A DNA stretch of 64,000 nt from an uncultured delta proteobacterium (GCA_963764075.1 CAVXQZ010000002.1:76915-140914); one strand, 5' to 3'. Numbered from the stretch's first letter, positions 1-21,816 are shown. The notes: generated by a model not told the origin, from the sequence alone. Numbers and translations: made by a program.

Positions 1-44
1 GCCCTATTGACTGGACCAACGCGAAGGGGCAAAGGAAACTCGAT

Positions 45-374
45 ATGGCGAAGAAAGACACCGCGAAGAAGAAGCCTCTGACCAAGAGCGCGCTCCTCCA
101 GGCCGTCACGGACACGGTCGGGGACGGGCTTTCACGAAGACAGGTGACTCAGGTAATCGAGACGCTCGTCAGCGTCGGCCACACGGAGCTGAAGAAGAAC
201 GGCGTGTTCACGCTGCCCGGTTTTGCCAAGTTCGTCGTGGTCAAGAAGCCGGCTCGACCTGCGCGCGAGGGGATCAATCCCTTCACCAAGGAGAAGCAGA
301 AGTTCGCGGCAAAACCCGCCAGCAAGGGCGTGCGCGCAAGACCCGTAAAGGCGATAAAGGACTCGGTTCTCTGA
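45..374 (+). CDS. HU/IHF-family nucleoid-associated DNA-binding protein with a Lys-rich N-terminal tail
   Basis: 109-aa ORF. The core LSRRQVTQVIETLVSVGHTELKKNGVFTLPGFAKFVVVKKPARPAREGINPFTKEK has the HU/IHF beta-arm signature (R-x-G-x-N-P-x-T). N-terminal tail is MAKKDTAKKKP. Confidence 0.85.
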   Translation: MAKKDTAKKKPLTKSALLQAVTDTVGDGLSRRQVTQVIETLVSVGHTELKKNGVFTLPGFAKFVVVKKPARPAREGINPFTKEKQKFAAKPASKGVRARPVKAIKDSVL

Positions 375-585
375 TAAAGCACGCAGCGGCTGATAAACCA
401 TCCGCCCTTCGGGCTCCCATGGCCCCGTGAGCACTGAGCCCGCACCGTCGCCGCGCGCCTTCCGGGCGGCGACGTATTACGCGAGACCATGACCCGCGAC
501 GTACGGGCGGAACGATAGGTGCTACCGAGAACGAAGTTCCGAAGAATGGGAATGCGCGCCATCGCCTGTTGTAGACTGGCCATCG

Positions 586-990
586 ATGTCCAACGCCTTT
601 CGTTCTCAAGTATCTGAGCTCACGAGGTCGCTCGTGGAATCGATCCTGGTGGCGGCTCGGTCGGCTCCCTTGGAGGAGCTCTGGTCCGATCCCCGTGGTA
701 CTCGCCATGAACCCCGTCGCAACGGCGGCGTCGCGGCGAGCAGGCTTCCGGCAGTCGACTGGTCCGCTGGCGATCGCGGTCGGCCTACGCAAGCCGCGGC
801 GAAAACGCTCGAGCTTGTCGTGCTGCTCTTGAGGGGCCAACCGGGGGGCATGCGCGCAGAGTACCTCCGCAAGAAGCTTGGAGTCTCCAAGCCGGAGATT
901 ACGCGGGCTCTCAAACAAGGACTCGAGTCCAAGAAGATCGTCAGCAAAGGTGAGAGACGCGCGACGACCTATTTCGCGGCGGCGCCATAG
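586..990 (+). CDS. hypothetical protein with a C-terminal winged-helix-like module
   Basis: 134-aa ORF. The C-terminus MRAEYLRKKLGVSKPEITRALKQGLESKKIVSKGERRATTYFA looks like an HTH plus wing. No family recognised. Confidence 0.45.
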   Translation: MSNAFRSQVSELTRSLVESILVAARSAPLEELWSDPRGTRHEPRRNGGVAASRLPAVDWSAGDRGRPTQAAAKTLELVVLLLRGQPGGMRAEYLRKKLGVSKPEITRALKQGLESKKIVSKGERRATTYFAAAP

Positions 991-1302
991 CCATAGCGAC
1001 CCTTCTCGGGGCTGCGAGCGACATCGGCCTGCCGCCAACGCTAGGGGCTACCGGGTTTAGCGCCTGCGGTCGAGGGCCAGGTTACAGCCCGTCGCGAGGC
1101 CATTGATCGCGACGAGGTAGGCGAGGGCGGCGAGCGCCAACGGCCTCGAGCCCGAGCACGTTCTCGTCCACCTGCCGGGGCTGAACATCCGGGTCGACCA
1201 CGCGGGGCTCGGCGCCAATCATGCGGCGCTCGAGGTGACGGAAGGCAGGAAGCCCTGGTTTTCACCTCGACATCGAGACAGTGTCGGCCGAGCATCTCGA
1301 AC

Positions 1303-2187
1303 ATGCCCCGCGAGTCGCCGCCCTGGCCGAAGACCTACACGGCGACGGAAGCGCCCAAGGAGGTGCTCGACCTCGCCGCGCGTGTGATGCCGCTTCTCCT
1401 CGCAAGCGACCACGCAACGTGCATCCAACTTCGGAAGCAGTACGCGAGGGCCCGCATCCAACAGGTCGAGCTGACGGGGGCTGGGTTCTTCGTCACCTTC
1501 GAGGTCCCCGCCGACGTCGCACGCACGACGCCCCCGAACCTTCAGGGAGGCGACGTGCACATCCGGGTCGAAGGAGTCGAGCATGGGGCCGGCTGCGTCC
1601 TCTTCGTCCGAGATGGGGTCCTCTCGATGCTGGAGGGCTATACCTACGGCGAGGAATGGCCGGAGCACCCGCTGATCGTCGAGCTTCGGGAGGCGACTCC
1701 GCTTGCGCCGCCCGGCGAGCCAACGCGTCGCTTGATAGACGTGGGCGGACTCGTCGAAGAGACGAGCGTTTGCCTTGCCGTCTACGGCGAGGATCTCGAC
1801 CCCGCAGCCGTCACTGCGCTTCTCGGTTCCTCACCGACCTCCGCGCATCGCAGAGGGGACCGTCGCGGTCCGCGTAGCCCTCCAGCGAAGGGAGGTGGCT
1901 GGTTTCTCGAAGTTCGTGGCAAGGCGCCAGAGGGGCCGGACGAACTCGCGCTCGCTCTCCTCGGTCGCCTGCCGGAGGACGAGAGCGTCTGGATCAAGCT
2001 CTGCGAGTTGTACGAGGTCCAGCTTCGATTCGGCATCCACATGACCGGATGGAATCGAGGCTTCGGCCTATCGCCGGCGACCACGACGAGGGTCGCCAGC
2101 CTGCGCGCCAGCATGGTGTTCAATATCTACGCTTACGATGGCGAAGAAGGCATGGGTCACGATGATCACGATCGTCCGGCACCATAA
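1303..2187 (+). CDS. two-domain hypothetical protein: N-terminal immunity-like domain plus C-terminal DUF4279-like domain
   Basis: 294-aa ORF. The C-terminal half (VCLAVYGEDLDPAAVTALLGSSPTSAHRRGD...WFLEV...LYEVQLRFGIHMTGWNRGFGLSP...MVFNIYAY) follows the DUF4279 pattern. The N-terminal half (ELTGAGFFVTFEVP...GAGCVLFVRDGVLSMLEGYTYGEEWPE) resembles small immunity-type proteins. Confidence 0.6.
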   Translation: MPRESPPWPKTYTATEAPKEVLDLAARVMPLLLASDHATCIQLRKQYARARIQQVELTGAGFFVTFEVPADVARTTPPNLQGGDVHIRVEGVEHGAGCVLFVRDGVLSMLEGYTYGEEWPEHPLIVELREATPLAPPGEPTRRLIDVGGLVEETSVCLAVYGEDLDPAAVTALLGSSPTSAHRRGDRRGPRSPPAKGGGWFLEVRGKAPEGPDELALALLGRLPEDESVWIKLCELYEVQLRFGIHMTGWNRGFGLSPATTTRVASLRASMVFNIYAYDGEEGMGHDDHDRPAP

Positions 2188-2719
2188 CGAGCCTATCGGC
2201 CACCGATTTTTACGTCGCGGCCCCGGCGTCCCCGTGTCCGAGGCTTGCCGGAAGCTTGGGACTACTACTCCCCGAAGAGGCGCTCCGCTCTGCTGTGACG
2301 CGGCTCACCGGAGCGGCGGCAAGCGGACATGTGCCGCGCGATGGCGGTGCCGCGGTTGTAGACGATGACCATGTGCACGAGGAGCTTCAAAGTCCCACCA
2401 CGCTGGCACGTCCGCCCTGGGTCGAAGGCCGCCTCTGAATCGAAGGCGCTATCAGCAAAGTCAGACCGCTTGTCCGCCGGCCCCGCTCACCGGATGCGGG
2501 CAAGTTGGAGTGTGTTCACGCTTGCATCGAAGACATCGACTATCCGCCGAAGCGCGAATCCGATCGCGCGATGGTGCGTCAGTTGGGGACGGGCGCGTGG
2601 ATCGCCTCCCAAATTGGTCGACCAATCGACGAAGACGGTCGGTTGCGGTCAAGCCGATAACGCGTGATCGGTCAAGTCTCGACCCTTGCCGGCTTGCGCC
2701 CGCTTGCACGGCCTACTCG

Positions 2720-2887
2720 CTCCTGCAATGCATTACGGCGCGTCCCATCTTCGCCAGCGCTGCGAAGGACAACGTCGCGTCGCCTCGCGTGCTCGAGAAG
2801 TGCGGCTTCACAGTCCGCGGCTCAGGGAGAGCCTTCGCGAGCGCGCGCGGTGAGGAGATTGACGAGGTTTTTCTAGTGTTCCACTGA
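2720..2887 (+). pseudogene. C-terminal remnant of a GNAT (RimJ/RimL-type) N-acetyltransferase
   Basis: Only the last ~55 codons look GNAT-like (LLQCITARPIFASAAKDNVASPRVLEKCGFTVRGSGRAFASARGEEIDEVFLVFH). The acetyl-CoA-binding part is absent in this frame. A possible frameshifted piece (VSWGRARG) lies in another frame near 2580-2640. Confidence 0.55.
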
Positions 2888-3055
2888 TGACGGTAGTGGC
2901 GTCCCTGGCGAAAGCATTACTAACGGGACCGGGCACCGGCGAAACTGGTGAAAATGGGACCCTCGGGAACCGGCGGCGACACTCTACGGCGGAGCGAAAG
3001 CGTCCTGTTCGAGACCGGTCTATCCAGGCCATCCTCCGGCCCCGAGCCCGACCCC

Positions 3056-3379
3056 TCAGTTGGGCGAAGACGGACCGTGAGGGAAGTCTTTCGCGCGAAG
3101 CCGGTCGCCCCCGGCGATGAGGAAGTGGATGTCCACCGTGCTCTCCGTACGGTCCGGTTGCACCGTGACGTGGATATGTTCTTGAGGGAGGGCGTTCCCT
3201 GGAACGTACCCGAACAACCACACCTCCAGGCAGCTTCGCAGCTCGCGGATGTGCTCGACGTGCCACATGAGCCGATCTCCGAGCGCGCTCATGTTCGCGC
3301 GTATGGCCTTGCACCTGTCCGTGGCTTCGAACCTTTCGCGCAACTCTTGACTGATTCTCGTGGAGTACGTGATGGGCAT
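3056..3379 (-). CDS. hypothetical 107-aa protein, downstream partner of the nuclease-like gene
   Basis: Starts 25 nt after the stop of the 3404-4639 gene on the same strand. Third-codon positions are GC-biased in this frame, while the overlapping plus-strand ORF looks like antisense noise. No family recognised. Confidence 0.5.
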   Translation of the reverse strand: MPITYSTRISQELRERFEATDRCKAIRANMSALGDRLMWHVEHIRELRSCLEVWLFGYVPGNALPQEHIHVTVQPDRTESTVDIHFLIAGGDRLRAKDFPHGPSSPN

Positions 3380-3403
3380 AGGGGAACCTGGTCCAACGAG
3401 AGA

Positions 3404-4639
3404 TTACTTCGGGACGTCGAACGCGAGCACGGTCACAGTAAGCTCCCGGCTCGGGTCGCTCTTGTGAGACAAGACCGCCCGGAAGCGCGTTTCGCCGTTC
3501 GGCTTCTCCTCGCGCTTGAAGTTCGGGTGCGACCGCAGCCCGTCCGGAAGCTTCGCCAGCACCGTTGAGAATTGCGTGTCGCGGTTGAATACGACGATCG
3601 CCGTCTTGGTATCGCGCCACGAGGCGTACCCAAGGAGCTGGTCGATGGTCTCGTGGAACCCCTTAGGACCGCTCCAAAACTTGCACTCGGCGATGAACAC
3701 GTTCTTGCCGCCGTCTCGCACGAGGATGTCCGTCTTGCCCTCGACGTTGAACGTCTCACCGGTCGCCGAACCCTCGTAGTGACCGTTGAGCTGCACGACG
3801 AAGTGCCAGCGAAGGTGCTCCTCACCCAAGGCCGTGAACGCCGACGGGCTACGCTCCAGGACGAGCGCCATGTTCTGCATGACGGTCAAGATGTGCTCGT
3901 AATCGTCGTCGGCTAGCGCGGGCTCTGGTTTGAATGGTGCGCTGCTCGCTACGGGCGGTGGAGCGATCTTTCGCCGGACACTGGGCGCAGCGTACGTGGT
4001 CGGCATGCCCTCCCTTCGCCGCAGCCGATACCCGAGCGAGGCGACCACGCCGTGAGTTTTGAGGAGCCGCGCCCTCCGTTCCTCGACAGAGCGTCTAATT
4101 GCGCGCGGAAGCCGGTTTTTGTTGAGGTCTTCGACCTCCGACGTGATGCTGCGGATGTGGTTACGGATCTGGGCGAGCTGGTTGGTAAGCTGGACTTCCA
4201 CGCCTGCTTCCTGGTTGGCAGGCACAGTGAACGTCAGCACGAGGTCGTTGTCGCGGACCGTCCCACGCGGAGCGTTGAGCGTGAACGTGCCCGGCTGAAA
4301 CTTGAACAGTTCGGCCTCTCCGGTGAAGGGGACGTAGAAGCTAAAGGCCGTCGCCGGGATGGTCGGCTGATGGTCCCCATATTCCCACCTACCGTGCGGT
4401 AGCCGGCTTGTCTCCAGGGTCGCCTCCCTGGTCTCCATCGTGATCTGACTGTCGTCCGCCAGCGAGAGCGGTTCAATCTGGAGCTTCTCCACGAAGTAGG
4501 TGCACAGGTCGTCGAGCGGGGTGTTGAGCAGCCGGTTGCCGTCAAAGGCGTCAACCTCCTTTTCCACGGCTTCTTCCCGCGCACGCAGCGACGCGCTGAG
4601 GTGCCCTTGCGAGAACAAGGGTCTGTCGTCATGCGCCAT
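3404..4639 (-). CDS. predicted PD-(D/E)xK (Mrr-cat / restriction-endonuclease-like) nuclease-domain protein with an unknown ~270-aa N-terminal region
   Basis: The C-terminal GKTDILVRDGGKNVFIAECKFWSGPKGFHETIDQLLGY fits a D...E-x-K core. The ATG at 4639 is preceded by AGGAGG (4646-4651), so it is preferred over the GTG at 4666. The gene ends in a TAA stop. Confidence 0.6.
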   Translation of the reverse strand: MAHDDRPLFSQGHLSASLRAREEAVEKEVDAFDGNRLLNTPLDDLCTYFVEKLQIEPLSLADDSQITMETREATLETSRLPHGRWEYGDHQPTIPATAFSFYVPFTGEAELFKFQPGTFTLNAPRGTVRDNDLVLTFTVPANQEAGVEVQLTNQLAQIRNHIRSITSEVEDLNKNRLPRAIRRSVEERRARLLKTHGVVASLGYRLRRREGMPTTYAAPSVRRKIAPPPVASSAPFKPEPALADDDYEHILTVMQNMALVLERSPSAFTALGEEHLRWHFVVQLNGHYEGSATGETFNVEGKTDILVRDGGKNVFIAECKFWSGPKGFHETIDQLLGYASWRDTKTAIVVFNRDTQFSTVLAKLPDGLRSHPNFKREEKPNGETRFRAVLSHKSDPSRELTVTVLAFDVPK

Positions 4640-5198
4640 TATGATCCTCCTGGCCTCCCGCGGCACTGCTCAGCACGCCGCGCACGTCATGTCCAGTGCC
4701 GGCCTGCTCCACACCGACTAACACGCCGATCCACGACACCTCGTGTGGGCCGTCAATCCTTCTTCGCCTTTGATGGCTGACTGCGTCGCGCTGACGCCCG
4801 TGACCATCCCGGGGCTCGCAGGCGCCCGAGCGGTTTCGATCGCCACCGACGGCGCAGGAAATTTCGCGTCGTCGCCGAGATTGGATGCACGCCACAATCC
4901 ATCGTGCTGGCTCACGGCACCCTCGCGGGCGGTTTAACCCGCACGATTACCGTCGTTCCCCGGGGAATGTCCGCGGCCGTCCAGCCCACCGTCGGGTGGG
5001 CCGCAACGCGTGCCGTGCCGGGCGAGCCACAAAGCTCTTGGGTGGTCAGCTAGATCGCCGCGGGTGGGGGCGCGTTGCACGCGCTCGCGATGCGCTTCGA
5101 CGCCAACAGCGTTGGGGGGAATCCTCGATCCGGGCGCGGCGGCCGGTGCGACGGTCACGTAAGTTGGCCGGACCGTTGAAGCTTGGCGTCCAATCCTT

Positions 5199-6440
5199 TC
5201 ACGGCCCCGACGGGGAGGCTGGCGAAGGGGTCGCATCCGACGTACCGCACGGCGAGATCTTGGTTTCGAGCTGCGTGCGATCGCTCGGCGCCCAGTCGAC
5301 GACGAACGGGTTCGCCTGCCGCTTCATTTGCTCTGCCCGTGGAGGTCGGCGTTCGGCCCGGTTGTCAAGACCGTCGCCGCGTTTCCACCACCCCCGCCAG
5401 CCTGGTCCGAAGAGTCGCTCGATGTCTGCCTTCATCTGTGCGTGAGAAACAGCCGATTCAGCGGCCGGCGCGGATTGCGGCGACGGGGCGCGTGCCTCAC
5501 CGTTGTGGGGGGCCCGAAGGCGTCCGTTGCGCTCGTCGGCGAGCCGCCGGCGCCGGCCATGCTCCACATGGTCTAAGAAGTGGTCGAGCTTGCCCCAGAT
5601 GAAACGAACCGTCGGTGGTCCTTCCTTCGACGCGAGAAACGCGCCTCCAATGGCATCGCGTAGGGCAAGCATCTTCTCACCGCTATTGCCATCGAGCGCG
5701 CTTGCGCATGCGGCCACCAGGGTAACGTCACCCGCGTCAAAATAGCGCGGGGCAGGGCGTGTCGGGTGCTTGCGCGTCATGCGCTCGCTGAGCGCGATCC
5801 GCGCCAGGTCCCGATCCTCCTCGGTGACGGGTGCGGCTTGTTCTTCTTTCGCGTCGTTCGGCGCTCCGACAGCCGGAGCATCGCAAGAAGAAGGTTTAAT
5901 CTGATCTTTCTCTCTGAGTTCCCCGGAAGCGCCTTCCGGTGGCCCACCGGCGTGGTTTTCCGGTGGGTGAGTCGCGGTAGGCGCCAGCGTCCTTGGCGAC
6001 GGGACGTCGGTCCGAAGCGCCTTCGCCCGATCGCGCGGGAAGCGTTCCACGAAGTCTGCGAGCGCGGCGAGCGTCACGAGCCCGGGCGCGTAGAAGATTC
6101 GCACCGATCCGTCCGGTCGCCGTTCGTGCCGCACTCGGATGAAGCCAGCGCGTTCGAGTAAGTCGGCTTGGTCGCGGACGGCGCGGGTCGACCATCCACT
6201 GAAGCGCCCGAGCGTGTCTTGGCTCGGCCACGCCTCGGCGTTGCCCTGCCAGTGGACAGCAATCCCGATGAAGAGCGCCCAAGGCCCTTTGCTCAGTCTC
6301 TGAAACTCGGCATTACGAGCGCGCAGTTCGAGAAGCGCCAGACCGAAGTTGTCTCGAAGTCGAATCCTCTCACGTATAGGAAACACGTCATCGTCGCGCT
6401 CTTCCGGACCGGCCGGGAGAGCGTTTGCTGCACTCAACAT
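5199..6440 (-). CDS. wHTH protein of the replication-initiator/HTH_36 type, typical of integrative elements
   Basis: 413-aa ORF. The N-terminal segment AWPSQDTLGRFSGWSTRAVRDQADLLERAGFIRVRHERRPDGSVRIFY is a winged helix of the kind seen in phage or ICE Rep-like proteins. The rest is low-complexity. Confidence 0.5.
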   Translation of the reverse strand: MLSAANALPAGPEERDDDVFPIRERIRLRDNFGLALLELRARNAEFQRLSKGPWALFIGIAVHWQGNAEAWPSQDTLGRFSGWSTRAVRDQADLLERAGFIRVRHERRPDGSVRIFYAPGLVTLAALADFVERFPRDRAKALRTDVPSPRTLAPTATHPPENHAGGPPEGASGELREKDQIKPSSCDAPAVGAPNDAKEEQAAPVTEEDRDLARIALSERMTRKHPTRPAPRYFDAGDVTLVAACASALDGNSGEKMLALRDAIGGAFLASKEGPPTVRFIWGKLDHFLDHVEHGRRRRLADERNGRLRAPHNGEARAPSPQSAPAAESAVSHAQMKADIERLFGPGWRGWWKRGDGLDNRAERRPPRAEQMKRQANPFVVDWAPSDRTQLETKISPCGTSDATPSPASPSGP

Positions 6441-7093
6441 TGCGTGCGCCCCTCCGCGCCAAGCGGCGCGGCGAAGGGCCTCGAGGAGGGCACACGATCG
6501 CCGATCACGTCCTGCGCGATGAGCGGGCGTGTCCTCTCGGGGCGTTCGTTCCTGAAGCGCGTGGCGCGCTCCATGCGAGCGGCGTCTTCAACGTCGCGTC
6601 GCCTTGGGAGTCGGCGCGCAAACAGTCTTGCGCACGGACAAGCGAACTCCTATGCTTTGGCTCGAAGCGGCGAGTGAAACCACTTCCGAGACAAAGCTCT
6701 CGAACCGGCCTTGTTTGATGCGGGTGGCTCCGCAACGAACAAGGCCGAAGTTCTTTGTGCCACCCGCGCCTAGCTCATGGTGGCCTCCGCGTCGGAGCGC
6801 AGCACGCCCTTGATACGGTGAGCCGGATGCAGCGCGTCAGCGGGGCGGGTGAGCGACGCATCGACGCGCAACGTCTTCGCGGCGACAGCCGGCATCATCG
6901 CGAGAGCGACGTCCCGCTTCGGGATCACCCGTGGGTCGCGCTCATCGTTCGCGATCGAGTAGCACGTCAGTTCCGCCCGTGCTGAACGGGAGGCACCTAC
7001 TGAACGGCTGCCTTCACACCGTTTTTCACACCGTTCGGGTGGCCACTCATAGCGTCGGCTGACCGGACCCGGACAGCAGATCCTCGAGAAAAG

Positions 7094-7138
7094 TGGAGCG
7101 GGAGAAGGGATTTGAACCCTCGACGTCCACCTTGGCAA
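7094..7138 (-). pseudogene. 3' half of tRNA-Gly(GCC), from the anticodon loop to CCA, with no matching 5' half (att-type remnant)
   Basis: The minus strand reads TTGCCAA-GGTGG-ACGTC-GAGGG-TTCAAAT-CCCTT-CTCCCGC-T-CCA. That is anticodon loop (GCC), stem 3' strand, variable loop, T-arm, acceptor 3' strand, U73 discriminator and CCA. The upstream 37 nt lack a D-arm and do not pair with the acceptor strand. Confidence 0.75.
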
Positions 7139-7499
7139 ATTGGATGCGGCATTCAACGGGATGCGCGCTCCCTGCGCGCCAGAACACGCAGCGAAGATTC
7201 CGGAGACACGCTGGTCGCCGCGCCGCGCGCCTCATTGAGGCCGTCGGCGGGAGCAGAGGTTTGGCTGAGCTCAGGAGGCGGACCAGATTCGAAAGGAGCT
7301 CTGGGCTCTTGGGCGTGATCCGCAGGGGCAGGCGGTTCTGCAGGCCGGGCAGAATTTGCTCTTTCCCCGCGCGTGACACCGCTCGTCTGCGCCAGCCTTC
7401 GCGCCTCGAGCTCGCGAGCCAGCTGAACCACTACGTCGAATCGACCGGCGGCGGCCGCTCGCCCCAGCGCTTCGACCAGCGTCATCGAGATGGGGTCGT

Positions 7500-7557
7500 G
7501 ATTGCCCGATGATTGCCCGATGCCGGTCTCGCCTCGTGCGATCTCGGGCGATCTCGT
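7500..7557. repeat. two adjacent short tandem duplications (11 bp x2, then 10 bp x2)
   Basis: gattgcccgat is repeated at 7500-7521 and gcgatctcg(g/t) is repeated at 7538-7557. The 11-bp duplication shifts the reading frame of the ORF that crosses it. Confidence 0.85.
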
Positions 7558-7613
7558 GTCGCCTTGGTGCTTGTTTGCTCGGTTTTCCGAAAAGTCGGCC
7601 TCGGTGTCCTGAG

Positions 7614-7652
7614 TTTTAAATCCGCTGCGTCTGCCGATTCCGCCAAGGGGCC
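7614..7652 (-). pseudogene. 5' half of tRNA-Leu(UAA), from the acceptor to the end of the anticodon loop, with the 3' half missing
   Basis: The minus strand reads GGCCCCT-TG-GCGGAATCGGCAGACGC-A-GCGGA-TTTAAAA, near-identical in pattern to bacterial tRNA-Leu(UAA) 5' halves. The sequence after the loop (CTCAG...) cannot close the anticodon stem, and no T-arm follows. Confidence 0.7.
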
Positions 7653-7803
7653 GAAGAACGTTGGCTTCTGTGCTCGCGACTAGGCCGCGCCGGCACAGGA
7701 TCGTTGAGGAATCGGTCGCGCACAAGACTTGATCGGAAACCGGCGTTGGCGCGCGCTCAGGACCCGGAGCGGCGCGCCAGGTCGCATTCGCCTCCCCGCG
7801 CTC

Positions 7804-8943
7804 CTACGCGGCGACCTTCAGCACGACCTTCGTCCAGCCGTTCTCGCGCGCGTCAAAATGGGCATACGCATCGGGCGCTGCGTCGAGTCGCAGCCGATGC
7901 GACACGACGAACGAGGGTCGGGCGCGCCCCGCGTGAATCAAGTCTCGGAGCTCGCGATTGTATGCCTTGACGTTGGCTTGCCCCGAGCCGAGCCTGAGGC
8001 CCTTCGCGAAAAAGGCGCCAAAGTCGAACGCAATGCGGCCCTTTCTCATGAGCGGGTCCGGGCCCTTGGGGTCCTCCGGCACGAACACTCCGACGACCCC
8101 GATGACGCCCGTCGCCCGGACCGACTGCACGAGCCGGTTCATCGTCGCGTTCGGCTCCTCGTGTCCCGACGGGTCGTGCGCCTGCCAGCCGACGCACTCG
8201 CAACCTTTGTCCGCGCCGAACCCATGTGTGAGCTCGCGGATGCGCTCGACCGGGTCCACCTCGGAGTCGTCAATCGCGATGGCGCCGATGTCTTGCGCGA
8301 GGGCAAGACGATCCGGATGTCGGTCGACCACCATCACCTGCTTGGCCCCTTGAATCATCGCCGAGTATGCGGCCATGAGGCCGACCGGACCGGCACCGTA
8401 GATGACGAGCGATTCGCCAGGCCGGAGCTCCGCCAAACGGGTCGCGTGCCAGCCCGTCGGAAAGATGTCGGCGAGCATGACGTAATCGTCTTCTTTCTCC
8501 GCCGCGTCCTCGGGAAGGCGAAGGCAATTGAAGTCGGCGAAAGGCACGCGCAAAAGCTCGGCTTGCCCTCCGTTGTACGGTCCCATCTCCGCGTACCCGT
8601 ACGCGGCGCCTGCCATGCCCGGGTTGGTCGTGAGGCAGAAGCCCGTCTGACCCTTCTCGCAGTTGCGGCAAAATCCGCACGCGATGTTGAAGGGGAGGCA
8701 AACCCGATCGCCCACCTTGACACGAACGATCGCGTCGCCGACTTCGACGATTTCGCCGAGGTTCTCGTGGCCGAGAATTTTCCCAGGCTCGACGCTCGTC
8801 CGCCCTTCGTACATGTGCAGGTCCGACCCGCAGATGTTGGTGCTCGTGATCCGAATCAGCGCATCGGTTGGACGTTCGATGCGCGGATCAGGCACGTCCT
8901 CGATCGTGACTTTGCGGGGTCCGTCATAAACGAGAGCTTTCAT
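7804..8943 (-). CDS. fdhA: Zn-dependent, glutathione-independent formaldehyde dehydrogenase-like alcohol dehydrogenase
   Basis: MKALVYDG...ITSTNICGSDLHMYEGRT...GHENLGEIVEVG...PFNIACGFCRNCEKGQTGFCLTTNPGMAGAAYGYAEMGPYNGGQAELLRVPFADFNCLRLP closely follows the P. putida FdhA pattern. Start taken at the internal ATG at 8943. Confidence 0.85.
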   Translation of the reverse strand: MKALVYDGPRKVTIEDVPDPRIERPTDALIRITSTNICGSDLHMYEGRTSVEPGKILGHENLGEIVEVGDAIVRVKVGDRVCLPFNIACGFCRNCEKGQTGFCLTTNPGMAGAAYGYAEMGPYNGGQAELLRVPFADFNCLRLPEDAAEKEDDYVMLADIFPTGWHATRLAELRPGESLVIYGAGPVGLMAAYSAMIQGAKQVMVVDRHPDRLALAQDIGAIAIDDSEVDPVERIRELTHGFGADKGCECVGWQAHDPSGHEEPNATMNRLVQSVRATGVIGVVGVFVPEDPKGPDPLMRKGRIAFDFGAFFAKGLRLGSGQANVKAYNRELRDLIHAGRARPSFVVSHRLRLDAAPDAYAHFDARENGWTKVVLKVAA

Positions 8944-9080
8944 GGTGCCTCCTCCGGCAATCCTTGAATGCGCTCGTACGCAAACCGCGAGCCCAATGGG
9001 ACCCAGCTGGACCCGCCTACGGGTGGTCCAGCGGCCGCGCCGCAAAGACGCGCGGACTCGAATGCCAGTTCATTGGGGCT

Positions 9081-10058
9081 TCATTGCGGCTTGTCCGTTC
9101 CCATCGCGTGGTCGAGCTCTTGTTTGACTTCCTTCTGCGTGGGATCGATCGGAAAGGCGTGCGCCTCGCGCGCCTGTGGGTTGTCGAACGCGAGCGATAC
9201 TTTGTAGAGTTCGAACCTCCCGTCGGCCGCGGTCTCGCGGCATCGGTCGCGCAGCGCCTGCATGTCGCGATCGCTCATCCGCTCGAAGCCGTGCGCGACT
9301 TTGAGGTTCGCACGAAGCTTGTCGACCGTCTCCATGCCGCAAATCGTTGTGGCCACCGGCAGACTCATCGCGTAGCGGAGCAGCTCTTCGGGGGTCGCGA
9401 TCTTCTTTTGGATGGGCGCGGCCTTGCCGGTCATCGGCTTCATCCCGAGCACCCCGATGGACCGCTTGCGGCACTCGGGCAGGACCTTGGTCTCGAAGCT
9501 GCGGTAGCTCGCGTCGAACGCGTTCAGCGGGAATTGACACGTGTCCCACGGGTAACCGCGGGTGATCATCTCGTAATGAACGTCCGGGCTCTTGTGTCCC
9601 GTAAACCCGACAAAGCGGGCTTTCCCGGAGCGCTTGGCCTCGTCGAGCGCCTCGATGACGCCGCCTTTTCTGTAGGCGAGCGCCGGATCGTCGTCGAAGA
9701 CTACGCCGTGGACTTGCCACACGTCCAAGTGATCGGTCCGAAGGCGGCGAAGCGATTCGTCCAGCATCTTCAGCGCGAGCGAGGCGTCTCGTCCGTGCGT
9801 GCAGACTTTGGTCATCAACATGACCTTGTCGCGCCGCCCGCCGGTGGATAGGGCGCGACCCATCCAGTCCTCGCTGCGCCCGTTGTTGTACTCCCAGCAG
9901 TTGTCGAAGAAATCGACTCCTCCGTCGATCGCCTCGCCCACGATTCGATCGGCCTCGGCGAAGCTCGGCGCGTCGCCGAGGTGGTGGCCGCCGACGGCGA
10001 GTGCGGATACCGTCGCGCCGGTCTTTCCGAGCGGGCGGCGGGGCATGGCGGCGCTCAT
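9081..10058 (-). CDS. aldo/keto reductase
   Basis: 325-aa ORF with RPLGKTGATVSALAVGGHHLG...FFDNCWEYNNGRSE...LRRLRTDHLDVWQVH...FVGFTGHK. It has a 4-nt overlap with the upstream paralogue. Confidence 0.85.
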   Translation of the reverse strand: MSAAMPRRPLGKTGATVSALAVGGHHLGDAPSFAEADRIVGEAIDGGVDFFDNCWEYNNGRSEDWMGRALSTGGRRDKVMLMTKVCTHGRDASLALKMLDESLRRLRTDHLDVWQVHGVVFDDDPALAYRKGGVIEALDEAKRSGKARFVGFTGHKSPDVHYEMITRGYPWDTCQFPLNAFDASYRSFETKVLPECRKRSIGVLGMKPMTGKAAPIQKKIATPEELLRYAMSLPVATTICGMETVDKLRANLKVAHGFERMSDRDMQALRDRCRETAADGRFELYKVSLAFDNPQAREAHAFPIDPTQKEVKQELDHAMGTDKPQ

Positions 10059-11131
10059 AGCGGAAGCTCCAGTTGGGTGGGATACCCATGTTGTTCGCGT
10101 CCCACTTTCGCGTCGTAGTGTGTCGTCGTCTTGTAGAGTTCGTTGTGCCCGTCGGCAGCCGCCCCCCGAACCCGATCGCGGAGGGCCTGCATCTCTTCGG
10201 GCCGCATCGGCTCGAATCCTCGGGCGATCGCAAGGTTCTGGCGAAGAATGTCGAGCGCGTCGACGCCGCTGACGGTCGTCGCGATCCCGGGGACGCTCAT
10301 CGCATACCGGAGCGCCTCTTGCGCGCTGACCACGCCTTTGCGAACGGGATCGCCCGCGCCGCCCAGGCTCTTCATGCCGATGGGCGCGATGCCGCGCGTG
10401 AGGAGCTCGGGCAGAACGCGCTGCTCGAAGCTCCGAAATGTGCCGTCGAAGCAGTTGATGGGCATCTGGACGGTATCGAAGGGAAAGCCATGCGCGAGCA
10501 TTCTCAGGTGAATGTCGGGATGCTTGTGGCCGGTGAAGCCGACGAAGCGGGTTTTGCCGTCCTTCTTCGCGCGCTCCAGGGCATCGATGACTCCGCCCGG
10601 GGCGAAATGCAAATCAGGGTCGTTATCGTAAATGCATTCGTGCACCTGCCAAAGGTCGAGGTGGTCGGTCTGAAGGCGGCGCAGCGAGTCTTCGAGCTGC
10701 TGCATCGCCACGTCGGCCTTGCGGCCGTGGGTGCACACTTTCGTCATCAAGAAGACTTGGTCCCGCTTGCCTTGAAGGGCGCGCCCGAGAATTTCTTCGC
10801 TCTTGCCGTCGTGGTACTCCCACGCGTTGTCGAAGAAGGTGACGCCCGCGTCGATCGCCTGGGCGACAATCGCCAGTGCCTCATCGGGGTCGCGCACGTC
10901 GCCGAGGTGAGAGCCGCCGATGCCGAGGACCGACACGGTGGCGCCAGTTTTCCCGAGAGGGCGTCGAGGGACGGACGACGGCGACGCCGCGGGGGGCTGC
11001 GGGTCTGGGGTCGCTCGAATCGAGTTCGTGTCGCCCTGAGCCCGCGAGCAACCGGCGAGAGCGGCCGCGGCGCTGGAGGCAAGGAACCTTCGACGGGTGT
11101 GCTCGGAGCGCATGCGCGAGTGCGTGTGCAA
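10055..11131 (-). CDS. aldo/keto reductase paralogue with a Tat-type signal and lipobox
   Basis: The N-terminus RRRFLASSAAAALAGC is a twin-arginine signal plus lipobox. The body is parallel to the neighbouring AKR (FFDNAWEYHDGKSE...LRRLQTDHLDLWQVH...FVGFTGHK). Confidence 0.8.
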   Translation of the reverse strand: MHTHSRMRSEHTRRRFLASSAAAALAGCSRAQGDTNSIRATPDPQPPAASPSSVPRRPLGKTGATVSVLGIGGSHLGDVRDPDEALAIVAQAIDAGVTFFDNAWEYHDGKSEEILGRALQGKRDQVFLMTKVCTHGRKADVAMQQLEDSLRRLQTDHLDLWQVHECIYDNDPDLHFAPGGVIDALERAKKDGKTRFVGFTGHKHPDIHLRMLAHGFPFDTVQMPINCFDGTFRSFEQRVLPELLTRGIAPIGMKSLGGAGDPVRKGVVSAQEALRYAMSVPGIATTVSGVDALDILRQNLAIARGFEPMRPEEMQALRDRVRGAAADGHNELYKTTTHYDAKVGREQHGYPTQLELPL

Positions 11132-11345
11132 GGCGCATTCTCAGCTGAGCGTTGCCCCGTCTCGAAACGTCTCGAACGTCGCGGGGGGGGTTCTGACCCA
11201 AAAGGACCACGAGCTTTCCCGCGTCCCGACTGTGGCGTGCTTGCGGTGACTGTGGCGAGAGCGCCTGGCGACGATTTTGCGCCCGGGCTCAGGTTCTTCG
11301 CGCACGGGGGCGCGCGGGGAGCGACGAGACCCATGCACAGCCCTC

Positions 11346-13076
11346 TCAGGCCGCGAGATTCGCGAGGTATCGGAGGCCGGAGGCGATCGGCTGACGGTGA
11401 TCGAAATCGACCTCGAGGCGCTCGAGCGCGCCGCGCAGTGCGCCTGCGGTCGGGCCGCGGTCCCGCGCCTTGATCAGGCTTTCGAGAAGGTTCCAGCGCA
11501 GCAGCCATTCGTCGGGGTAATCGCGATCGAGCTCGGCAATCACGCGTCGGAATTCTTCGGCGATCTCCCCTCGGTCCGCGCGATGCGCCCGCTCGGCTCG
11601 CACGTAGAGATCGATCAACCGGAGCTCCCGCTCCGGGCGCGCGCGCGGCCGAGGGACTCGAACGATCGGGGGTGCCGTGCTCGGAAGGTACCCGGGATCA
11701 ACGGACCCCGCGTGCACCGAGACCGGATCACCGGCCGCGACGAGCGAATGATTCGCAACCAGGCGAGGCGGCAGCCCCGGGAGGGAAATCCGCACATCGG
11801 CGAGATCCAGGTGCATCAGCCGCCCGTCGGCGCGACGCACCGTTCGGACAAATCGCCCTTCCACACGGGCGCCAGTGGCGAATTCGAAGGTGACGCGCTC
11901 GGTCGAGGGGTCGCGCGATCGGAGTATCTCGTCGTCACCGAGGTGCTCGGGGGCGGCGCCGCCCGCGAGTCGTCCGACGACGACGCACGCCCCGTCTTGC
12001 CAACGAAGGGCCGTAGGGTCCGGCATCGAGCCGTCCCACACGAAAGCCCCCGGACCCTCGAAGATGAGCCATGCCGGCGACGAAAGACTCGGGCCTGCGC
12101 TCGCAAGTACGCCCATCGCGCAGGCCCCCGATGAAAAGTGCACACTCGCAAGCTCCCGACTCCTTGTTGCTCGCGAAAGCGCCACGTCTCCTCCCACGTG
12201 CACCGCCAGCTCGCGCGAGACCCGATTGAGAAGGTCGTGGAGGGCCTCGAACGACGGCGTCACGAAGAGTCGCGGCTGCGGCCGTGTAATGTCGTAGGTC
12301 ACGTCCATGCAACCCGCGTCGAGCGGCAGCTTTGCGACGTCTTGCGCGTGACACGAGTGGCTTTCCCAGAGAGACGAAAGAAGTCCCGCGCCGTATATTT
12401 TGTAATCGTCGACCCGGCCCACTAGGCCATATTCGGCGGTCCACCAGTACAGCCTCGACAGCCGCGCGGCCTCGCTCGGTTCGGACGCACCGCCCGTGGC
12501 GGCCCCGAGCTCCGCTTCGATTTGCGCGAGTTCGTCCGGGCCCCGCGCCTGGTCCTCCATCGCCTCGCTGAGCGCGTAAATCGCACGATATACTCGGTCT
12601 TCCGCGGGAAGCGTGAACGCCTTCCGCCCGAGATCTCCGATGCGCCGCAAGTATGCGGCGTAAACCGGGTCCGGAAGGATGGGCGCGTGCCCAGCGGCCT
12701 CGTGGATGATGTCCGGCGCCGGCGTATAGACCAGATGCTCTCGTGTTCGCATTTCGCCGGCGATAGGCAAGATTCCGCACGCCTGAAATTCCTGGAAGGC
12801 GCGCGGCGGGATGAACCCGTCGACGCAGACCGCGCCCCAGCCGAAGCGCGCGAGCTTTTCGTTCATTTCTCCGATGCTCGGAATGCGCTCGACCGATATG
12901 CCGGTCGCGGCCAAGCCTTCCTTGTAGGCGGGGTGCGCCGTACGGACCAGCGTCGAGTGCGTCTGGAGCAGAACGAACCTCCAGACTGCCTGGTCGATCG
13001 CCGTGTATTGCGAATAGTCCTGTTCGACGACGAACCGGCGCAGGTGAGCGGGCACTTTCAGCCCCACGTCATCCAT
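11346..13076 (-). CDS. phhA: biopterin-dependent aromatic amino-acid hydroxylase (phenylalanine 4-monooxygenase), long form with a ~300-aa C-terminal extension
   Basis: The N-terminal ~270 aa include EHLVYTPAPDIIHEAAGHAPIL (iron-ligand His pair) and YWWTAEYGL. It lies in a Tyr-catabolism neighbourhood. Confidence 0.8.
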   Translation of the reverse strand: MDDVGLKVPAHLRRFVVEQDYSQYTAIDQAVWRFVLLQTHSTLVRTAHPAYKEGLAATGISVERIPSIGEMNEKLARFGWGAVCVDGFIPPRAFQEFQACGILPIAGEMRTREHLVYTPAPDIIHEAAGHAPILPDPVYAAYLRRIGDLGRKAFTLPAEDRVYRAIYALSEAMEDQARGPDELAQIEAELGAATGGASEPSEAARLSRLYWWTAEYGLVGRVDDYKIYGAGLLSSLWESHSCHAQDVAKLPLDAGCMDVTYDITRPQPRLFVTPSFEALHDLLNRVSRELAVHVGGDVALSRATRSRELASVHFSSGACAMGVLASAGPSLSSPAWLIFEGPGAFVWDGSMPDPTALRWQDGACVVVGRLAGGAAPEHLGDDEILRSRDPSTERVTFEFATGARVEGRFVRTVRRADGRLMHLDLADVRISLPGLPPRLVANHSLVAAGDPVSVHAGSVDPGYLPSTAPPIVRVPRPRARPERELRLIDLYVRAERAHRADRGEIAEEFRRVIAELDRDYPDEWLLRWNLLESLIKARDRGPTAGALRGALERLEVDFDHRQPIASGLRYLANLAA

Positions 13077-13138
13077 ATTGACAAAGGCTAGCGCGAAGAG
13101 CGGGGTGCGACCACCGGCCGCCCCGCGGACGCGCTGCT

Positions 13139-14122
13139 ATGATGGCTAGCGTGCGTCTCGCCACCCTCCGCGACGGTTCGCGCGACGGATCGCTCATCGT
13201 CGTCGACTCCGCAGCGCGGCGATTTGCGTCGGCCGCTCACGTCGCGCCGAATCTGCAAAGCGCGCTCGATGATTGGGACCGGATCAGCCCCGCGCTCGAG
13301 GCGCTCTCGCGCGAACTCGAGTCCGGTCGCGCTCCGGCCGATCCCGTGGCACTCCCAGCGCTCTCGGCGCCGCTGCCCCGGGCGTACGAGTGGATCGACG
13401 GATCGTGCTACTTGAACCATGTCCTTCTCGCCCGCAAAGCGCGGGGGGCCGACCCGCCGCCCGGGTTCGAAGTGGACCCGCTCGTCTACCAGGGCGGCTC
13501 TGGCGTCCTTCTCGCGGCGACCGATCCGCTCGTTTTGCCGGATGCGGCGTGGGGGCTCGATTTCGAGGCGGAGATCTGCGTCGTCTTGGGCGACGTTCCC
13601 CGAGGGGTCACGGCCGATGACGCGTCGTCCTGCGTGCGGTTGATGATGCTGGCCAACGACGTCACGTACCGAAACCTCGTCCGGCCCGAGCTCGAAAAAG
13701 GCTTCGGTTTTTTGGTGTCGAAGCCGGCGACGGCGTTCTCGCCCTTCGCCGTCACGCCCGCGGAGCTCGGTCCGGCTTGGCGCCAGGGTCGTGCGTTTCT
13801 TCGGATGCGCACGGCCTACAATGGGGATGTCGTCGGCGATGCCGAGACCGGGCCCGAAATGCACTTTTCGTTCTTCGACCTGATTGCCCACATCGCGAAG
13901 ACTCGCTCGCTGACGGCGGGCACGATCCTGGGCGGCGGAACCGTGTCCAATCGCGATCGCGGGCGGGGAGTCTCCTGCCTCGTCGAGCGCCGCATGATCG
14001 AGACGCTCGAGCTCGGAGCTCCCCGGACTCCCTTCATGACGCGGGGAGACAGGGTTCGGATCGAGGCATTCGACGACTCCGGCAGAAGTGTGTGCGGGGC
14101 GATCGATCAGCGCGTAGTGTGA
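13139..14122 (+). CDS. fumarylacetoacetate hydrolase (FAH) family protein
   Basis: 327-aa ORF with GLDFEAEICVVLG...ANDVTYRNL...FDLIAHIAKTRSLTAGTILGGGT. It sits next to hppD and hmgA. Confidence 0.8.
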   Translation: MMASVRLATLRDGSRDGSLIVVDSAARRFASAAHVAPNLQSALDDWDRISPALEALSRELESGRAPADPVALPALSAPLPRAYEWIDGSCYLNHVLLARKARGADPPPGFEVDPLVYQGGSGVLLAATDPLVLPDAAWGLDFEAEICVVLGDVPRGVTADDASSCVRLMMLANDVTYRNLVRPELEKGFGFLVSKPATAFSPFAVTPAELGPAWRQGRAFLRMRTAYNGDVVGDAETGPEMHFSFFDLIAHIAKTRSLTAGTILGGGTVSNRDRGRGVSCLVERRMIETLELGAPRTPFMTRGDRVRIEAFDDSGRSVCGAIDQRVV

Positions 14123-14206
14123 GAGGCGGGGAGGGCGCGGCAGAGCCGCGAGGCGCGGCGGCTGGGTATCCTTGTAGGAGCGCCATGGCGCCATTAAGCT
14201 AATACG

Positions 14207-21812: not shown

Positions 21813-21816
21813 AGCC

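What the first reader, a model, noticed from the sequence alone, without database searches (positions are those of the whole stretch)
7094..7652. Two unrelated tRNA half-genes about 475 bp apart: tRNA-Leu(UAA) 5' half and tRNA-Gly(GCC) 3' half, both broken at the anticodon loop
Seen, on the minus strand: 7652-7614 reads as tRNA-Leu(UAA) from position 1 through the anticodon loop (…GCGGA-TTTAAAA) and then diverges. 7138-7094 reads as tRNA-Gly(GCC) from the anticodon loop (TTGCCAA) through the T-arm, the acceptor strand CTCCCGC, U73 and CCA, with no usable 5' half. The two acceptor strands are not complementary (GGCCCCT versus CTCCCGC), so they do not form one split gene. An ORF between them (7480-7153) reads toward the Gly fragment and contains ...LVEALGRAAAAGRFDVVVQLARELEARRLAQ. 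Established: many tyrosine integrases cross over in the anticodon loop and leave a displaced 3' tRNA fragment as an att scar. In myxophage Mx8, attP lies inside the int coding region. Inference: this is a scar of successive integrations and deletions at a tRNA-Leu/tRNA-Gly cluster, and the intervening ORF may be a residual integrase tail.
Basis: partly seen in the sequence, partly recalled or inferred. Interest (0 to 1): 0.6.

Follow-up and report, generated by a model that had tools for sequence, protein, structure and literature searches.

The report
Island edge with split integrase tail
The two tRNA half-genes mark the edge of a roughly 90-100 kb mobile island inserted in the bacterium's only tRNA-Leu(UAA) gene: the Leu half is the recombination site, the ORF behind it is the cut-off tail of the island's integrase gene, and the Gly half is probably a leftover docking site; the design is already known from phage Mx8, in an unusual geometry.

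Summary
Both tRNA fragments are real. Window 7653-7614(-) matches, base for base, the first 39 nt (plus one upstream base) of the genome's only intact tRNA-Leu(UAA). Window 7138-7094(-) matches nt 31-75 of its only tRNA-Gly(GCC).

The Leu half is not a dead scar. It is the attL core of an island whose tyrosine integrase gene, on another contig (C3:1942-3420), reads through the intact tRNA-Leu in the same frame as the window ORF. Joining the two in silico gives one open frame colinear with full-length homologues. So the ORF is the displaced integrase tail: an Mx8-type design with attP inside int. [quoted passage not shown]

A congener has an uninterrupted tRNA-Leu between orthologues of genes about 10 kb and 8 kb out on the two flanks.

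The Gly fragment, with two arm-type repeats and a Rep-like gene, is a 1.75-kb backbone module found in three sibling conjugative-type islands. It is most likely a vestigial tRNA-Gly attP half left by an integrase-module swap.

This scan has already found the attP-in-int family, and 5'-half integration, on other DNA. This is a well-documented variant, not a new mechanism. The contig linkage and the history of the Gly fragment are inferred.

The parts
7804..9045 (-). Chromosomal flank: alcohol-dehydrogenase-like gene upstream of the tRNA-Leu half. The name is given by eye and was not tested against a family library.
   Evidence: ORF. Orthologues at 84-86% aa identity in congeners G001 and G008. 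The chromosomal side, window 7654-27000, matches in long blocks at 72-82% in 5 congeners.
7696..7738 (-). 43-nt motif between the adh-like gene and the tRNA half, 95% identical to the end of a repeat found three times on contig C3. Role unknown; possibly an IS-end remnant.
   Evidence: loose ends at 7696 and 7732 in short-read contigs.
7614..7653 (-). attL core: one upstream base plus tRNA-Leu(UAA) nt 1-39, through the anticodon loop. Read in frame as ..RPLGGIGRRSGFK.
   Evidence: 100% identical over 40 nt to C3:3244-3283. It is the only 5' fragment among about 28 tRNA fragments in the genome.
7360..7613 (-). Displaced 3' part of the integrase gene (the IntP tail): a disordered-linker coding part followed by a two-helix hairpin (about 7494-7390), with the conserved motif AGRFDVVVQLARELEARRL at 7440-7396.
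   Evidence: BLASTP to the C-termini of 16 full-length homologues. The in-silico join with C3:1945-3283 gives one 599-aa frame colinear with P0008 residues 5-521 of 535. AlphaFold model of P0008: residues 428-485 below pLDDT 50, helices at 487-501 and 505-521.
7500..7518 (-). Two tandem GGGCAATC sites (7518-7511 and 7507-7500), inverted relative to GATTGCCC 28 nt upstream of the core on the integrase side (C3:3215-3222). Candidate accessory integrase-binding sites.
   Evidence: The same 7-mer sits at about -20 to -34 and about +96 to +107 of the core in L036, L037 and the tRNA-Leu(UAG) element. Genome background is 0.11 per kb.
7139..7359 (-). Unique filler. The tail frame reads on for about 70 codons to the stop at 7155-7153 because the natural stop is missing.
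   Evidence: Natural tails stop about 20 aa after the motif. The filler is not matched elsewhere in this genome and gave only two short, weak hits (about 31-35 nt) in 120 family genomes.
7094..7138 (-). tRNA-Gly(GCC) nt 31-75: the att core of a tRNA-Gly-specific integration module, with no 5' half next to it.
   Evidence: 100% identical to C1:2459560-2459604. Five of the six copies of this core in the genome start at the same base; the sixth (C1b) keeps only the last 16 nt.
7013..7033 (-). Tandem arm-type repeat CGGTGTGAA-N3-CGGTGTGAA (the P' arm of the Gly att site).
   Evidence: This tandem pair occurs only 4 times in 7.4 Mb, always beside a Gly core: the window, C1:2459665, C1:81699 and the integrase-side arm at C3:3977268.
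5391..7138 (-). Module A (Gly core + arm repeats + complete Rep-like wHTH gene, 6440-5199). A 1.75-kb backbone unit 94% identical to two copies on contig C1, one of which directly continues the intact tRNA-Gly.
   Evidence: The HTH_36 match is weak (E 3e-4, below the Pfam cut-off). The three copies diverge at the 3' end of the Rep-like gene.
1..5390 (.). Start of the island interior: a defence-nuclease cassette, remnants, and RadC- and HU-like genes. It continues to C2:1, where a T4SS coupling protein and ArdC are encoded.
   Evidence: C2:1-76914 has only scattered or multicopy matches in 5 congeners.

Best explanation
Window 7653-7139(-) is the attL junction of a large island, at least 88 kb and probably conjugative, integrated in the single-copy tRNA-Leu(UAA) gene. 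The island's tyrosine integrase gene contains its own attP. The core is a sense copy of tRNA-Leu nt 1-39, placed after the catalytic domain in a stretch that encodes a disordered linker. Recombination in the anticodon loop had two results. It left the chromosomal 5' half joined to the integrase's 3' end (linker + helical hairpin tail) here. It joined the integrase body and the element's copy of the 5' half to the chromosomal 3' half at C3:1942-3420. There the regenerated tRNA now lies inside the integrase ORF (an IntX-like form with a host-derived tail), cut off from its native upstream region. By analogy with Mx8, loss of the tail is expected to change integrase activity after integration; this step is inferred. 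The tRNA-Gly 3' fragment 15 nt past the read-through stop belongs to the island backbone. It is the core plus P' arm of a tRNA-Gly-specific attP, kept next to the Rep-like gene when an ancestral integrase/P-arm module was replaced by the tRNA-Leu-specific module; this step is also inferred.
For: Integrase and frame:
- The integrase ORF C3:1942-3420 has PF00589 at aa 230-394, and HxxR and the NRY tyrosine are present. It reads through the intact tRNA-Leu in the frame ..RPLGGIGRRSGFK|IRN... The window ORF reads the Leu half in the same frame and continues as the tail.
- The joined frame is 599 aa and open. It aligns in a single HSP with full-length homologues, and scores rise compared with the integrated (IntX) form alone: P0008 505 to 552 bits, P0044 366 to 427 bits.

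Unrecombined attP elsewhere:
- A metagenomic contig (L036) carries an intact 535-aa integrase with a tRNA-Leu(UAA)-like 5' half inside the ORF and no tRNA gene. This is the unrecombined attP form.

Precedents in the same genome:
- Elements at tRNA-Lys, tRNA-Arg and tRNA-Ala (12-14 kb), plus a 12.7-kb tRNA-Leu(UAG) element, each have the integrase beside the tRNA and a tRNA fragment followed by the same tail motif at the far end. The Lys, Arg and Ala pairs join in frame; the Leu(UAG) integrase carries an internal TGA stop.
- Conserved GGGCAAT/ATTGCCC sites flank the core on both halves.

Uninterrupted site in a relative:
- Congener G042 has an uninterrupted tRNA-Leu(UAA) between orthologues of own C2:94.6-99.2 kb and C3:11.2-17.7 kb.
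- The C2 side beyond attL is non-syntenic and carries conjugation genes.

Gly fragment:
- Module A, a 3-kb conserved block, the coupling-protein block (R1) and the block upstream of the integrase (R2) are colinear between this island and the one at tRNA-Gly. The two islands differ between R2 and the Gly core, that is, in the integrase module.
Against: attL and attR lie on different contigs of a three-contig metagenome-assembled genome, so their linkage rests on synteny with one relative and on paralogous colinearity, not on reads. The G042 site matches only from about 10 kb (C2 side) and about 8 kb (C3 side) outward. The adh-like gene next to the half is not tRNA-linked in G001 or G008. The tail has lost its natural stop and the nearby DNA looks decayed, so the tail could come from an older element than the integrase on C3. 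No RNA, excision or activity data exist. No consensus promoter was found on either side. The Gly core's left edge coincides exactly with the crossover position, which would also fit a secondary-site integration. Only one matching integrase-side arm is present in the assembly.
Confidence: 0.78

Rival explanations
1. One reading: both halves are dead scars left by successive integrations and deletions at an ancestral tRNA-Leu/tRNA-Gly cluster.
For: No integrase within 40 kb on this contig. The tail lacks its stop and is followed by unique filler. Neighbouring genes look decayed.
Against: G042 and G006 have no tRNA-Gly within about 6 kb of tRNA-Leu(UAA). The Leu half has a perfect partner with an intact integrase in the same frame. 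The Gly fragment travels with a 1.75-kb module present in three islands.
Confidence: 0.07
2. The tail and Leu half belong to an older, largely deleted element. The integrase on C3 belongs to a later arrival at the same tRNA (a tandem array whose inner junction was lost), so the two were never one gene.
For: Sibling elements with this integrase type are only 12-14 kb. The tail's 3' end is altered. The island is a mosaic with a second, frameshifted tail about 8.7 kb further in, at C2:~75.7 kb.
Against: Only one Leu 5' half and one intact tRNA-Leu exist in the assembly. The cores are 100% identical and the frames match. The conserved GGGCAAT/ATTGCCC sites are present on both halves. The joined product is colinear with homologues.
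Confidence: 0.15
3. For the Gly fragment only: a tRNA-Gly-targeting element integrated by its own integrase into a secondary site just 3' of the integrase tail, so the fragment is a true attL-type junction and not a vestigial attP half.
For: Identity to tRNA-Gly starts at the same base as in four other copies, which is the expected crossover edge. The left flank CCAAT|TTGCCAA|GGTGG partly mimics the anticodon stem. A diverged Gly core (C2:3940-3971) lies 80 kb further in, in the same orientation.
Against: No reciprocal junction and no second copy of the matching integrase/P arm are present in the assembly. Module A occupies the equivalent backbone position in the colinear tRNA-Gly island.
Confidence: 0.3
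4. Assembly chimera at short tRNA repeats.
For: The genome is a three-contig metagenome assembly with breaks inside repeats.
Against: Independent short-read contigs span 7109-7643 (X1) and 7096-7643 (X3) with no differences, and an X1 contig spans 7614-9500 with one.
Confidence: 0.02
5. A split or trans-assembled tRNA gene made of the two halves.
For: The two halves are on the same strand, in 5'-then-3' order, and both end at the anticodon loop.
Against: They come from different tRNAs. The acceptor strands are not complementary (sequence). Each has an intact full-length copy elsewhere. ARAGORN and Rfam find no gene here.
Confidence: 0.01

Closest known systems
Myxophage Mx8 IntP/IntX (attP inside int; review PMC6070905; Tojo et al. 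1996 and Magrini et al. 1999, cited there and in PMC4383910)
   Same: A tyrosine integrase whose coding sequence runs across attP, downstream of the catalytic domain. Integration into a tRNA gene replaces the C-terminal segment and strands the original tail at the other end of the element.
   Different: Only 23% identity, confined to the catalytic domain, and the tails are not homologous. Read from its sequence, Mx8 appears to cross an antisense tRNA 3' end (not formally tested). Here a sense 5' half is used, so the whole regenerated tRNA lies inside the integrase ORF. The host element looks conjugative, not a phage.
pTN3-like 'suicidal' integrases of Thermococcales (review PMC8371274)
   Same: attP lies inside int. 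attB is the 5' half of a tRNA gene. The regenerated tRNA sits behind or inside int and is said to be expressed from the integrase promoter.
   Different: [quoted passage not shown] Their gene is split so that the catalytic part is separated from the N-terminal part. Here only a post-catalytic tail is removed and Pfam sees only PF00589.
tDNA genomic islands as defined by Islander (PMC4383910)
   Same: An intact tDNA plus a cognate end fragment in the same orientation, with an integrase at one end. A 5' fragment upstream of the tDNA is an allowed configuration. Overlap of integrase ORFs with the fragment is an acknowledged exception.
   Different: The fragment and the tDNA are on different contigs here, so the island is not formally delimited.
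Integration-module exchange among sibling integrative conjugative elements
   Same: Colinear backbones (Rep-like module, coupling protein/ArdC block, block upstream of the integrase) with different integrase and att specificities (Leu, Gly, Ala) in one genome.
   Different: The old att half (Gly core + arm repeats) is still present beside the new module. The exchange itself is inferred, not observed.

Membership tests
Mx8-type element (attP within the tyrosine integrase gene) | Tyrosine recombinase catalytic domain | tested here: met
   PF00589 E 1e-15 at aa 230-394 of C3:1945-3420. HxxR and the NRY tyrosine are visible in the sequence at columns invariant in the family alignment.
Mx8-type element (attP within the tyrosine integrase gene) | The att core (tRNA fragment) lies inside the integrase coding sequence | tested here: met
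   The integrated form reads through the tRNA. The unrecombined form L036 has the tRNA-Leu-like 5' half inside a 535-aa ORF.
Mx8-type element (attP within the tyrosine integrase gene) | Integration swaps the C-terminal segment, and the original tail is found next to the other att copy | tested here: met
   The tail follows the Leu half in the same frame. The in-silico join is colinear with full-length homologues. The same holds for the Lys, Arg and Ala elements.
Mx8-type element (attP within the tyrosine integrase gene) | Sequence relationship to Mx8 Int | tested here: not met
   23% identity, E 2e-5 pairwise, catalytic domain only. The tail gives no match. It works like Mx8 but is not a member of Mx8's integrase family.
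Mx8-type element (attP within the tyrosine integrase gene) | Altered integrase activity after the tail swap | not testable with these tools
   Needs recombination assays with the full and the integrated forms.
tDNA genomic island (Islander criteria) | Intact tDNA and cognate end fragment, same orientation, correct side, integrase inside, 2-200 kb, same replicon | tested here: inconclusive
   Fragment, tDNA, integrase and configuration fit. Contiguity is only inferred, from synteny with G042 and colinearity with sibling islands.
Archaeal suicidal (SSV/pTN3/pT26-2) integrases | attB is the 5' half of a tRNA gene (pTN3-like) | tested here: met
   The duplicated block is tRNA-Leu nt 1-39.
Archaeal suicidal (SSV/pTN3/pT26-2) integrases | Integration separates an N-terminal part from the catalytic part; Phage_integr_3 domain | tested here: not met
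   The core lies about 40 aa after the catalytic domain. Only PF00589 (and a weak PF22022) are found.
Integrative conjugative element | Type IV coupling protein, VirB4-type ATPase, relaxase | tested here: inconclusive
   The coupling protein (PF02534, E 3e-108) and ArdC are at C2:184-3676. The only VirB4 match in the assembly is in the sibling island, at C1:2558637. There are three coupling-protein copies of this type. Relaxase was not searched.
Split or permuted tRNA gene | Two halves that pair into one acceptor stem and fold as one tRNA | tested here: not met
   The halves have different tRNA identities and non-complementary acceptor strands. There is no ARAGORN or Rfam call.

The most novel reading that the evidence does not exclude
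In a large myxobacterial integrase family, the attachment site is housed in the gene segment that encodes a disordered linker between the catalytic domain and a conserved two-helix tail. This would let lineages retarget freely: at least seven tRNAs in this one genome, either strand, either half of the tRNA. Every integration would detach the helical tail as a built-in directionality switch. In the 5'-half, sense-oriented version seen here, the cell's only tRNA-Leu(UAA) gene would become dependent on transcription from inside the integrase gene, while the native tRNA upstream region would now drive a tRNA-half/tail RNA.
Probability: 0.3. Interest if true: 0.55.

Novelty: new variant of a known kind. 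Interest (0 to 1): 0.38.

Why it matters
The finding turns an apparent pair of orphan tRNA scars into a readable junction. It delimits one end of a large, probably conjugative island. It also explains why the three contigs of this genome break where they do. It shows that the Mx8 design (attP inside int) is routine in a soil myxobacterial lineage, across many tRNA targets.

The 5'-half, sense geometry is described in the review I read as typical of archaeal pTN3-like elements and seldom seen in bacteria (PMC8371274). It places a single-copy tRNA gene inside an integrase ORF, which makes host-element coupling of tRNA expression testable.

The retained Gly att half beside a new integrase module is a concrete trace of integration-module exchange between sibling elements.

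For annotation pipelines: start-less ORFs next to tRNA fragments can be integrase tails, and 5' fragments should not be discarded.

Tried and rejected
- **Unoccupied site via the neighbouring gene.** Orthologues of the adh-like gene in G001, G008 and G018 have no tRNA within 1.5 kb and share no flanking DNA.
- **Unoccupied site via the gene downstream of tRNA-Leu.** It belongs to a large paralogous family, and its best orthologues (G012, G014) are not tRNA-linked. The useful locus came from the tRNA hit in G042.
- **Rfam on 6800-7900.** No tRNA-type hit; the only match was a chance lncRNA hit.
- **Consensus promoter scan on both att sides.** Nothing found, so it does not inform.
- **tblastn of the integrase against the phage collection.** It found only an unrelated enrichment-culture virus, not Mx8. 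A second phage search failed on my frame error.
- **Collapsed-repeat hypothesis for the contig breaks.** Identity between repeat copies does not rise towards the contig ends; it stays at about 90%. The single VirB4 beside three coupling-protein copies still suggests that conjugation genes are missing from the assembly.
- **tblastx of the island edge against the small sibling elements.** Mostly noise. Only the tail, and for the Ala element the Rep-like gene, are shared.
- **Search for the filler 7139-7359 in 120 family genomes.** Only the tail motif is conserved.
- **First in-silico join.** It was off by one base and gave a false frameshift; corrected.
- **Old papers.** PMC178153 and PMC151502 (Tojo et al.) are not held, so Mx8 facts are cited through reviews.

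Full report
**Observation**

On the minus strand, the window reads in this order:
- an alcohol-dehydrogenase-like gene (9045-7804);
- a 40-nt block (7653-7614);
- an ORF;
- a 45-nt block (7138-7094);
- a Rep-like gene (6440-5199).

ARAGORN finds no tRNA anywhere in the window. Rfam finds nothing tRNA-like in 6800-7900.

The window is C2:76915-140914 of a 7.38-Mb, 66% GC, three-contig genome. That genome has one intact tRNA-Leu(UAA), at C3:3245-3329, and one intact tRNA-Gly(GCC), at C1:2459530-2459604.
- The first block is 100% identical to C3:3244-3283. That is one upstream base plus tRNA nt 1-39, and it ends at the last base of the anticodon loop.
- The second block is 100% identical to tRNA-Gly nt 31-75.

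Short-read contigs bridge 7109-7643 (soil run X1) and 7096-7643 (X3) without a single difference. A third run, X4, covers 7384-7643. An X1 contig bridges 7614-9500 with one difference. The arrangement is therefore real and not an assembly artefact.

**The Leu half and the ORF**

A Pfam integrase search of the genome found a tyrosine integrase whose open frame (C3:1942-3420; PF00589 at aa 230-394) ends not before but beyond the intact tRNA-Leu. It reads through the tRNA on the same strand as ..EISRPLGGIGRRSGFK|IRNPKG... The window ORF reads the Leu half in exactly the same frame..NVLRPLGGIGRRSGFK|TQDTEAD.., and goes on to ..LVEALGRAAAAGRFDVVVQLARELEARRLAQTSGVT...

Among the 120 best database homologues of the C3 integrase, 16 full-length proteins of 535-574 aa carry a C-terminal segment that aligns with window ORF residues 24-118. 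The best E-values are 6e-18 (P0044) and 1e-12 (P0008).

Joining C3:1945-3283 to window 7613-7153 in silico gives one open frame of 599 aa. It aligns in a single HSP with P0008 residues 5-521 of 535 (56% identity) and with five other full-length homologues. The scores are higher than for the integrated form alone.

The contig encoding P0008 (L036) shows the unrecombined state. It has a 535-aa integrase with a tRNA-Leu(UAA)-like 5' half (nt 1-39, then divergence) inside its ORF, and no tRNA gene. A second homologue, P0004 (L037), reads sense through a tRNA-Cys.

The window ORF is therefore the displaced 3' end of the integrase gene, and the Leu half is the att core.

**Precedents in the same genome**

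The tail motif occurs 11 times in the genome. For tRNA-Lys(CUU), tRNA-Leu(UAG), tRNA-Arg(UCG) and tRNA-Ala(CGC):
- an integrase body abuts the intact tRNA;
- 12-14 kb away, an exact 22-55-nt copy of the tRNA's 3' part precedes a tail motif by about 200-280 nt. In the window the distance is 174 nt.

The body-plus-tail joins are open for Lys (560 aa), Arg (577 aa) and Ala (656 aa); the Leu(UAG) integrase carries an internal TGA stop. The natural tails stop about 20 aa after the motif.

The window tail lacks that stop. It reads on through about 220 nt of unique DNA to 7153, so its 3' end has been altered.

Of about 28 tRNA fragments in the genome, the window's Leu piece is the only 5' fragment.

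**Extra att anatomy**

The 7-mer GGGCAAT occurs twice in tandem in the tail (7518-7511 and 7507-7500). Its complement lies 28 nt upstream of the core on the C3 side. The same 7-mer sits at about -20 to -34 and about +96 to +107 of the core in L036, L037 and the Leu(UAG) element. The genome background is 0.11 per kb.

These are candidate accessory integrase-binding sites. They explain the 'micro-duplication' noted earlier on this window. They do not shift the frame relative to homologues.

An AlphaFold model of P0008 (mean pLDDT 76) shows:
- folded N-terminal and catalytic parts;
- a low-confidence segment at 428-485 that contains the core-encoded peptide;
- a two-helix hairpin at 487-521, which is the conserved tail.

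**The other end and the size of the insertion**

In congener G042, one contig carries, in order:
- orthologues of own C2:99240-94576, in reverse (74-80% nt identity);
- an intact tRNA-Leu(UAA);
- orthologues of own C3:11161-17655.

The two flanks of the ancestral tRNA-Leu locus are thus split between C2 and C3. The DNA from window 7613 down to C2:1, and C3:1-3244, lies between them.

The match starts about 10 kb out on the C2 side and about 8 kb out on the C3 side, so this is not an unoccupied site at base resolution.

Window 7654-27000 matches in long blocks at 72-82% in five congeners. C2:1-76914 gives only scattered, mostly multicopy matches.

C2:184-3676 encodes a type IV coupling protein and an ArdC-like protein. 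Three coupling-protein copies of this type exist, two of them at contig starts, but only one VirB4, which sits beside the third copy. All contig ends lie in repeats shared by the same islands.

I infer an island of at least 88 kb, probably about 100 kb and conjugative, whose secretion genes fall in the assembly gap.

**The Gly fragment**

Identity to the intact tRNA-Gly locus does not stop at the tRNA end. Window 7138-5391 is 94% identical to C1:2459560-2461308, which directly continues the intact tRNA-Gly, and to C1:81623-83344.

This module A comprises:
- the Gly core;
- a tandem CGGTGTGAA-N3-CGGTGTGAA;
- a complete Rep-like gene.

That tandem occurs only four times in the genome, always beside a Gly core. 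The fourth copy lies on the other arm, at C3:3977268. There it is preceded by a 408-aa integrase that stops 183 nt before a Gly core.

The island at tRNA-Gly and the island at tRNA-Leu are colinear: module A, a 3-kb conserved block, the coupling-protein block, then a block (R2) upstream of the integrase. They differ in what lies between R2 and the Gly core:
- in the Gly island, a classical integrase plus P arm;
- in the Leu island, the attP-containing integrase, its tail and the filler.

The most economical reading is that the backbone once used tRNA-Gly, and that its integrase/P-arm module was replaced. The core and P' arm were left as a vestige 15 nt beyond the read-through stop.

The left edge coincides with the usual crossover edge, so a secondary-site integration by a Gly-specific element remains a serious alternative. 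No reciprocal junction is present in the assembly.

**Comparison with what is known**

Mx8 has attP inside int, and integration gives int a new 3' end (PMC6070905; also noted in PMC4383910). The present integrase family works the same way. However, it shares only 23% identity with Mx8 Int, in the catalytic domain, and the tails are unrelated.

According to a review, use of the tRNA 5' half, with the regenerated tRNA expressed from the integrase promoter, is typical of archaeal pTN3-like 'suicidal' integrases and 'seldomly encountered in bacteria' (PMC8371274). Unlike those, only a post-catalytic tail is detached here.

Earlier notes of this scan describe the same attP-in-int family with a small helical tail on other Polyangia DNA, and 5'-half integration in other phyla. 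So this is another, well-resolved instance that combines the two features.

**Verdict**

The 'dead scar at a Leu/Gly cluster' reading is not.

The mechanism for the Leu half and tail is shown by sequence logic. The contig linkage, the effect of tail loss on integrase activity, the transcription consequences and the history of the Gly fragment are all inferred.

Noticed in passing
G000 C3:3560970-3561055 (-): A degenerate second tRNA-Leu(UAA)-like gene: the anticodon loop is changed and the acceptor stem is defective. Its upstream flank resembles the 3' end of the Leu-type integrase gene. It looks like an old attR-type junction, carried inside a roughly 149-kb composite island at tRNA-Asn.
   Followed up: partly
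G000 contig ends: C2:1-3912, C1:4-3623, C1:2551797-2555709; C3:494-1325, C2:829620-830444, C3:3979037-3979865: All three contigs break inside two repeat blocks (coupling protein/ArdC, and a block upstream of the integrases) belonging to three sibling islands at tRNA-Leu, tRNA-Gly and tRNA-Ala(GGC). The implied joins are C2 start-C3 start, C2 end-C1 start and C1 end-C3 end.
   Followed up: partly
G000 C3:3975690-3978613: Two convergent integrase genes flank one 43-nt tRNA-Gly core. This is a junction between two tandem elements. The second arm carries GCTGTCCA repeats. A similar core lies 92 kb away, at C3:3884806-3884844.
   Followed up: partly
L016:4275-5165 (G000 C1:80274-81164): An IS110-family transposase lies just upstream of the third module A copy, whose Gly core is truncated to its last 16 nt. 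A similar left flank precedes the Gly core at C3:3884845.
   Followed up: no
window 7696-7738: A 43-nt motif upstream of the Leu half matches the end of a longer repeat present three times on C3 (2324635, 2333879, 1457576). It may be an IS-end remnant or a promoter element.
   Followed up: partly
window 26515-26727 and 51253-51347: Short palindromic-type repeats (about 50-190 nt) with well over 100 copies on all three contigs at 86-99% identity. They look like a REP/MITE-like family.
   Followed up: no
window 7623-7974 versus 7265-7566 in run X5: A peat metagenome from another study holds the adh-side flank with 0 differences but shows no depth over the integrase tail. This hints at a close strain without this junction. 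Depth is low and contigs do not prove absence.
   Followed up: no
L047:9468-11069 (G000 C2:29468-31069): A 1.6-kb segment is 97% identical to congener G014 and 97% to own C3:3971068-3972671, while the surrounding DNA is unmatched. It is probably a recently spread insertion sequence.
   Followed up: no
G000 C2:75626-76036 (-), about 0.9-1.3 kb before the window's first base: A second, frameshifted integrase-tail remnant, homologous to an intact tail at C3:3912804-3913076. It suggests that the first 8.7 kb inside attL is one decayed sub-element of a mosaic.
   Followed up: partly
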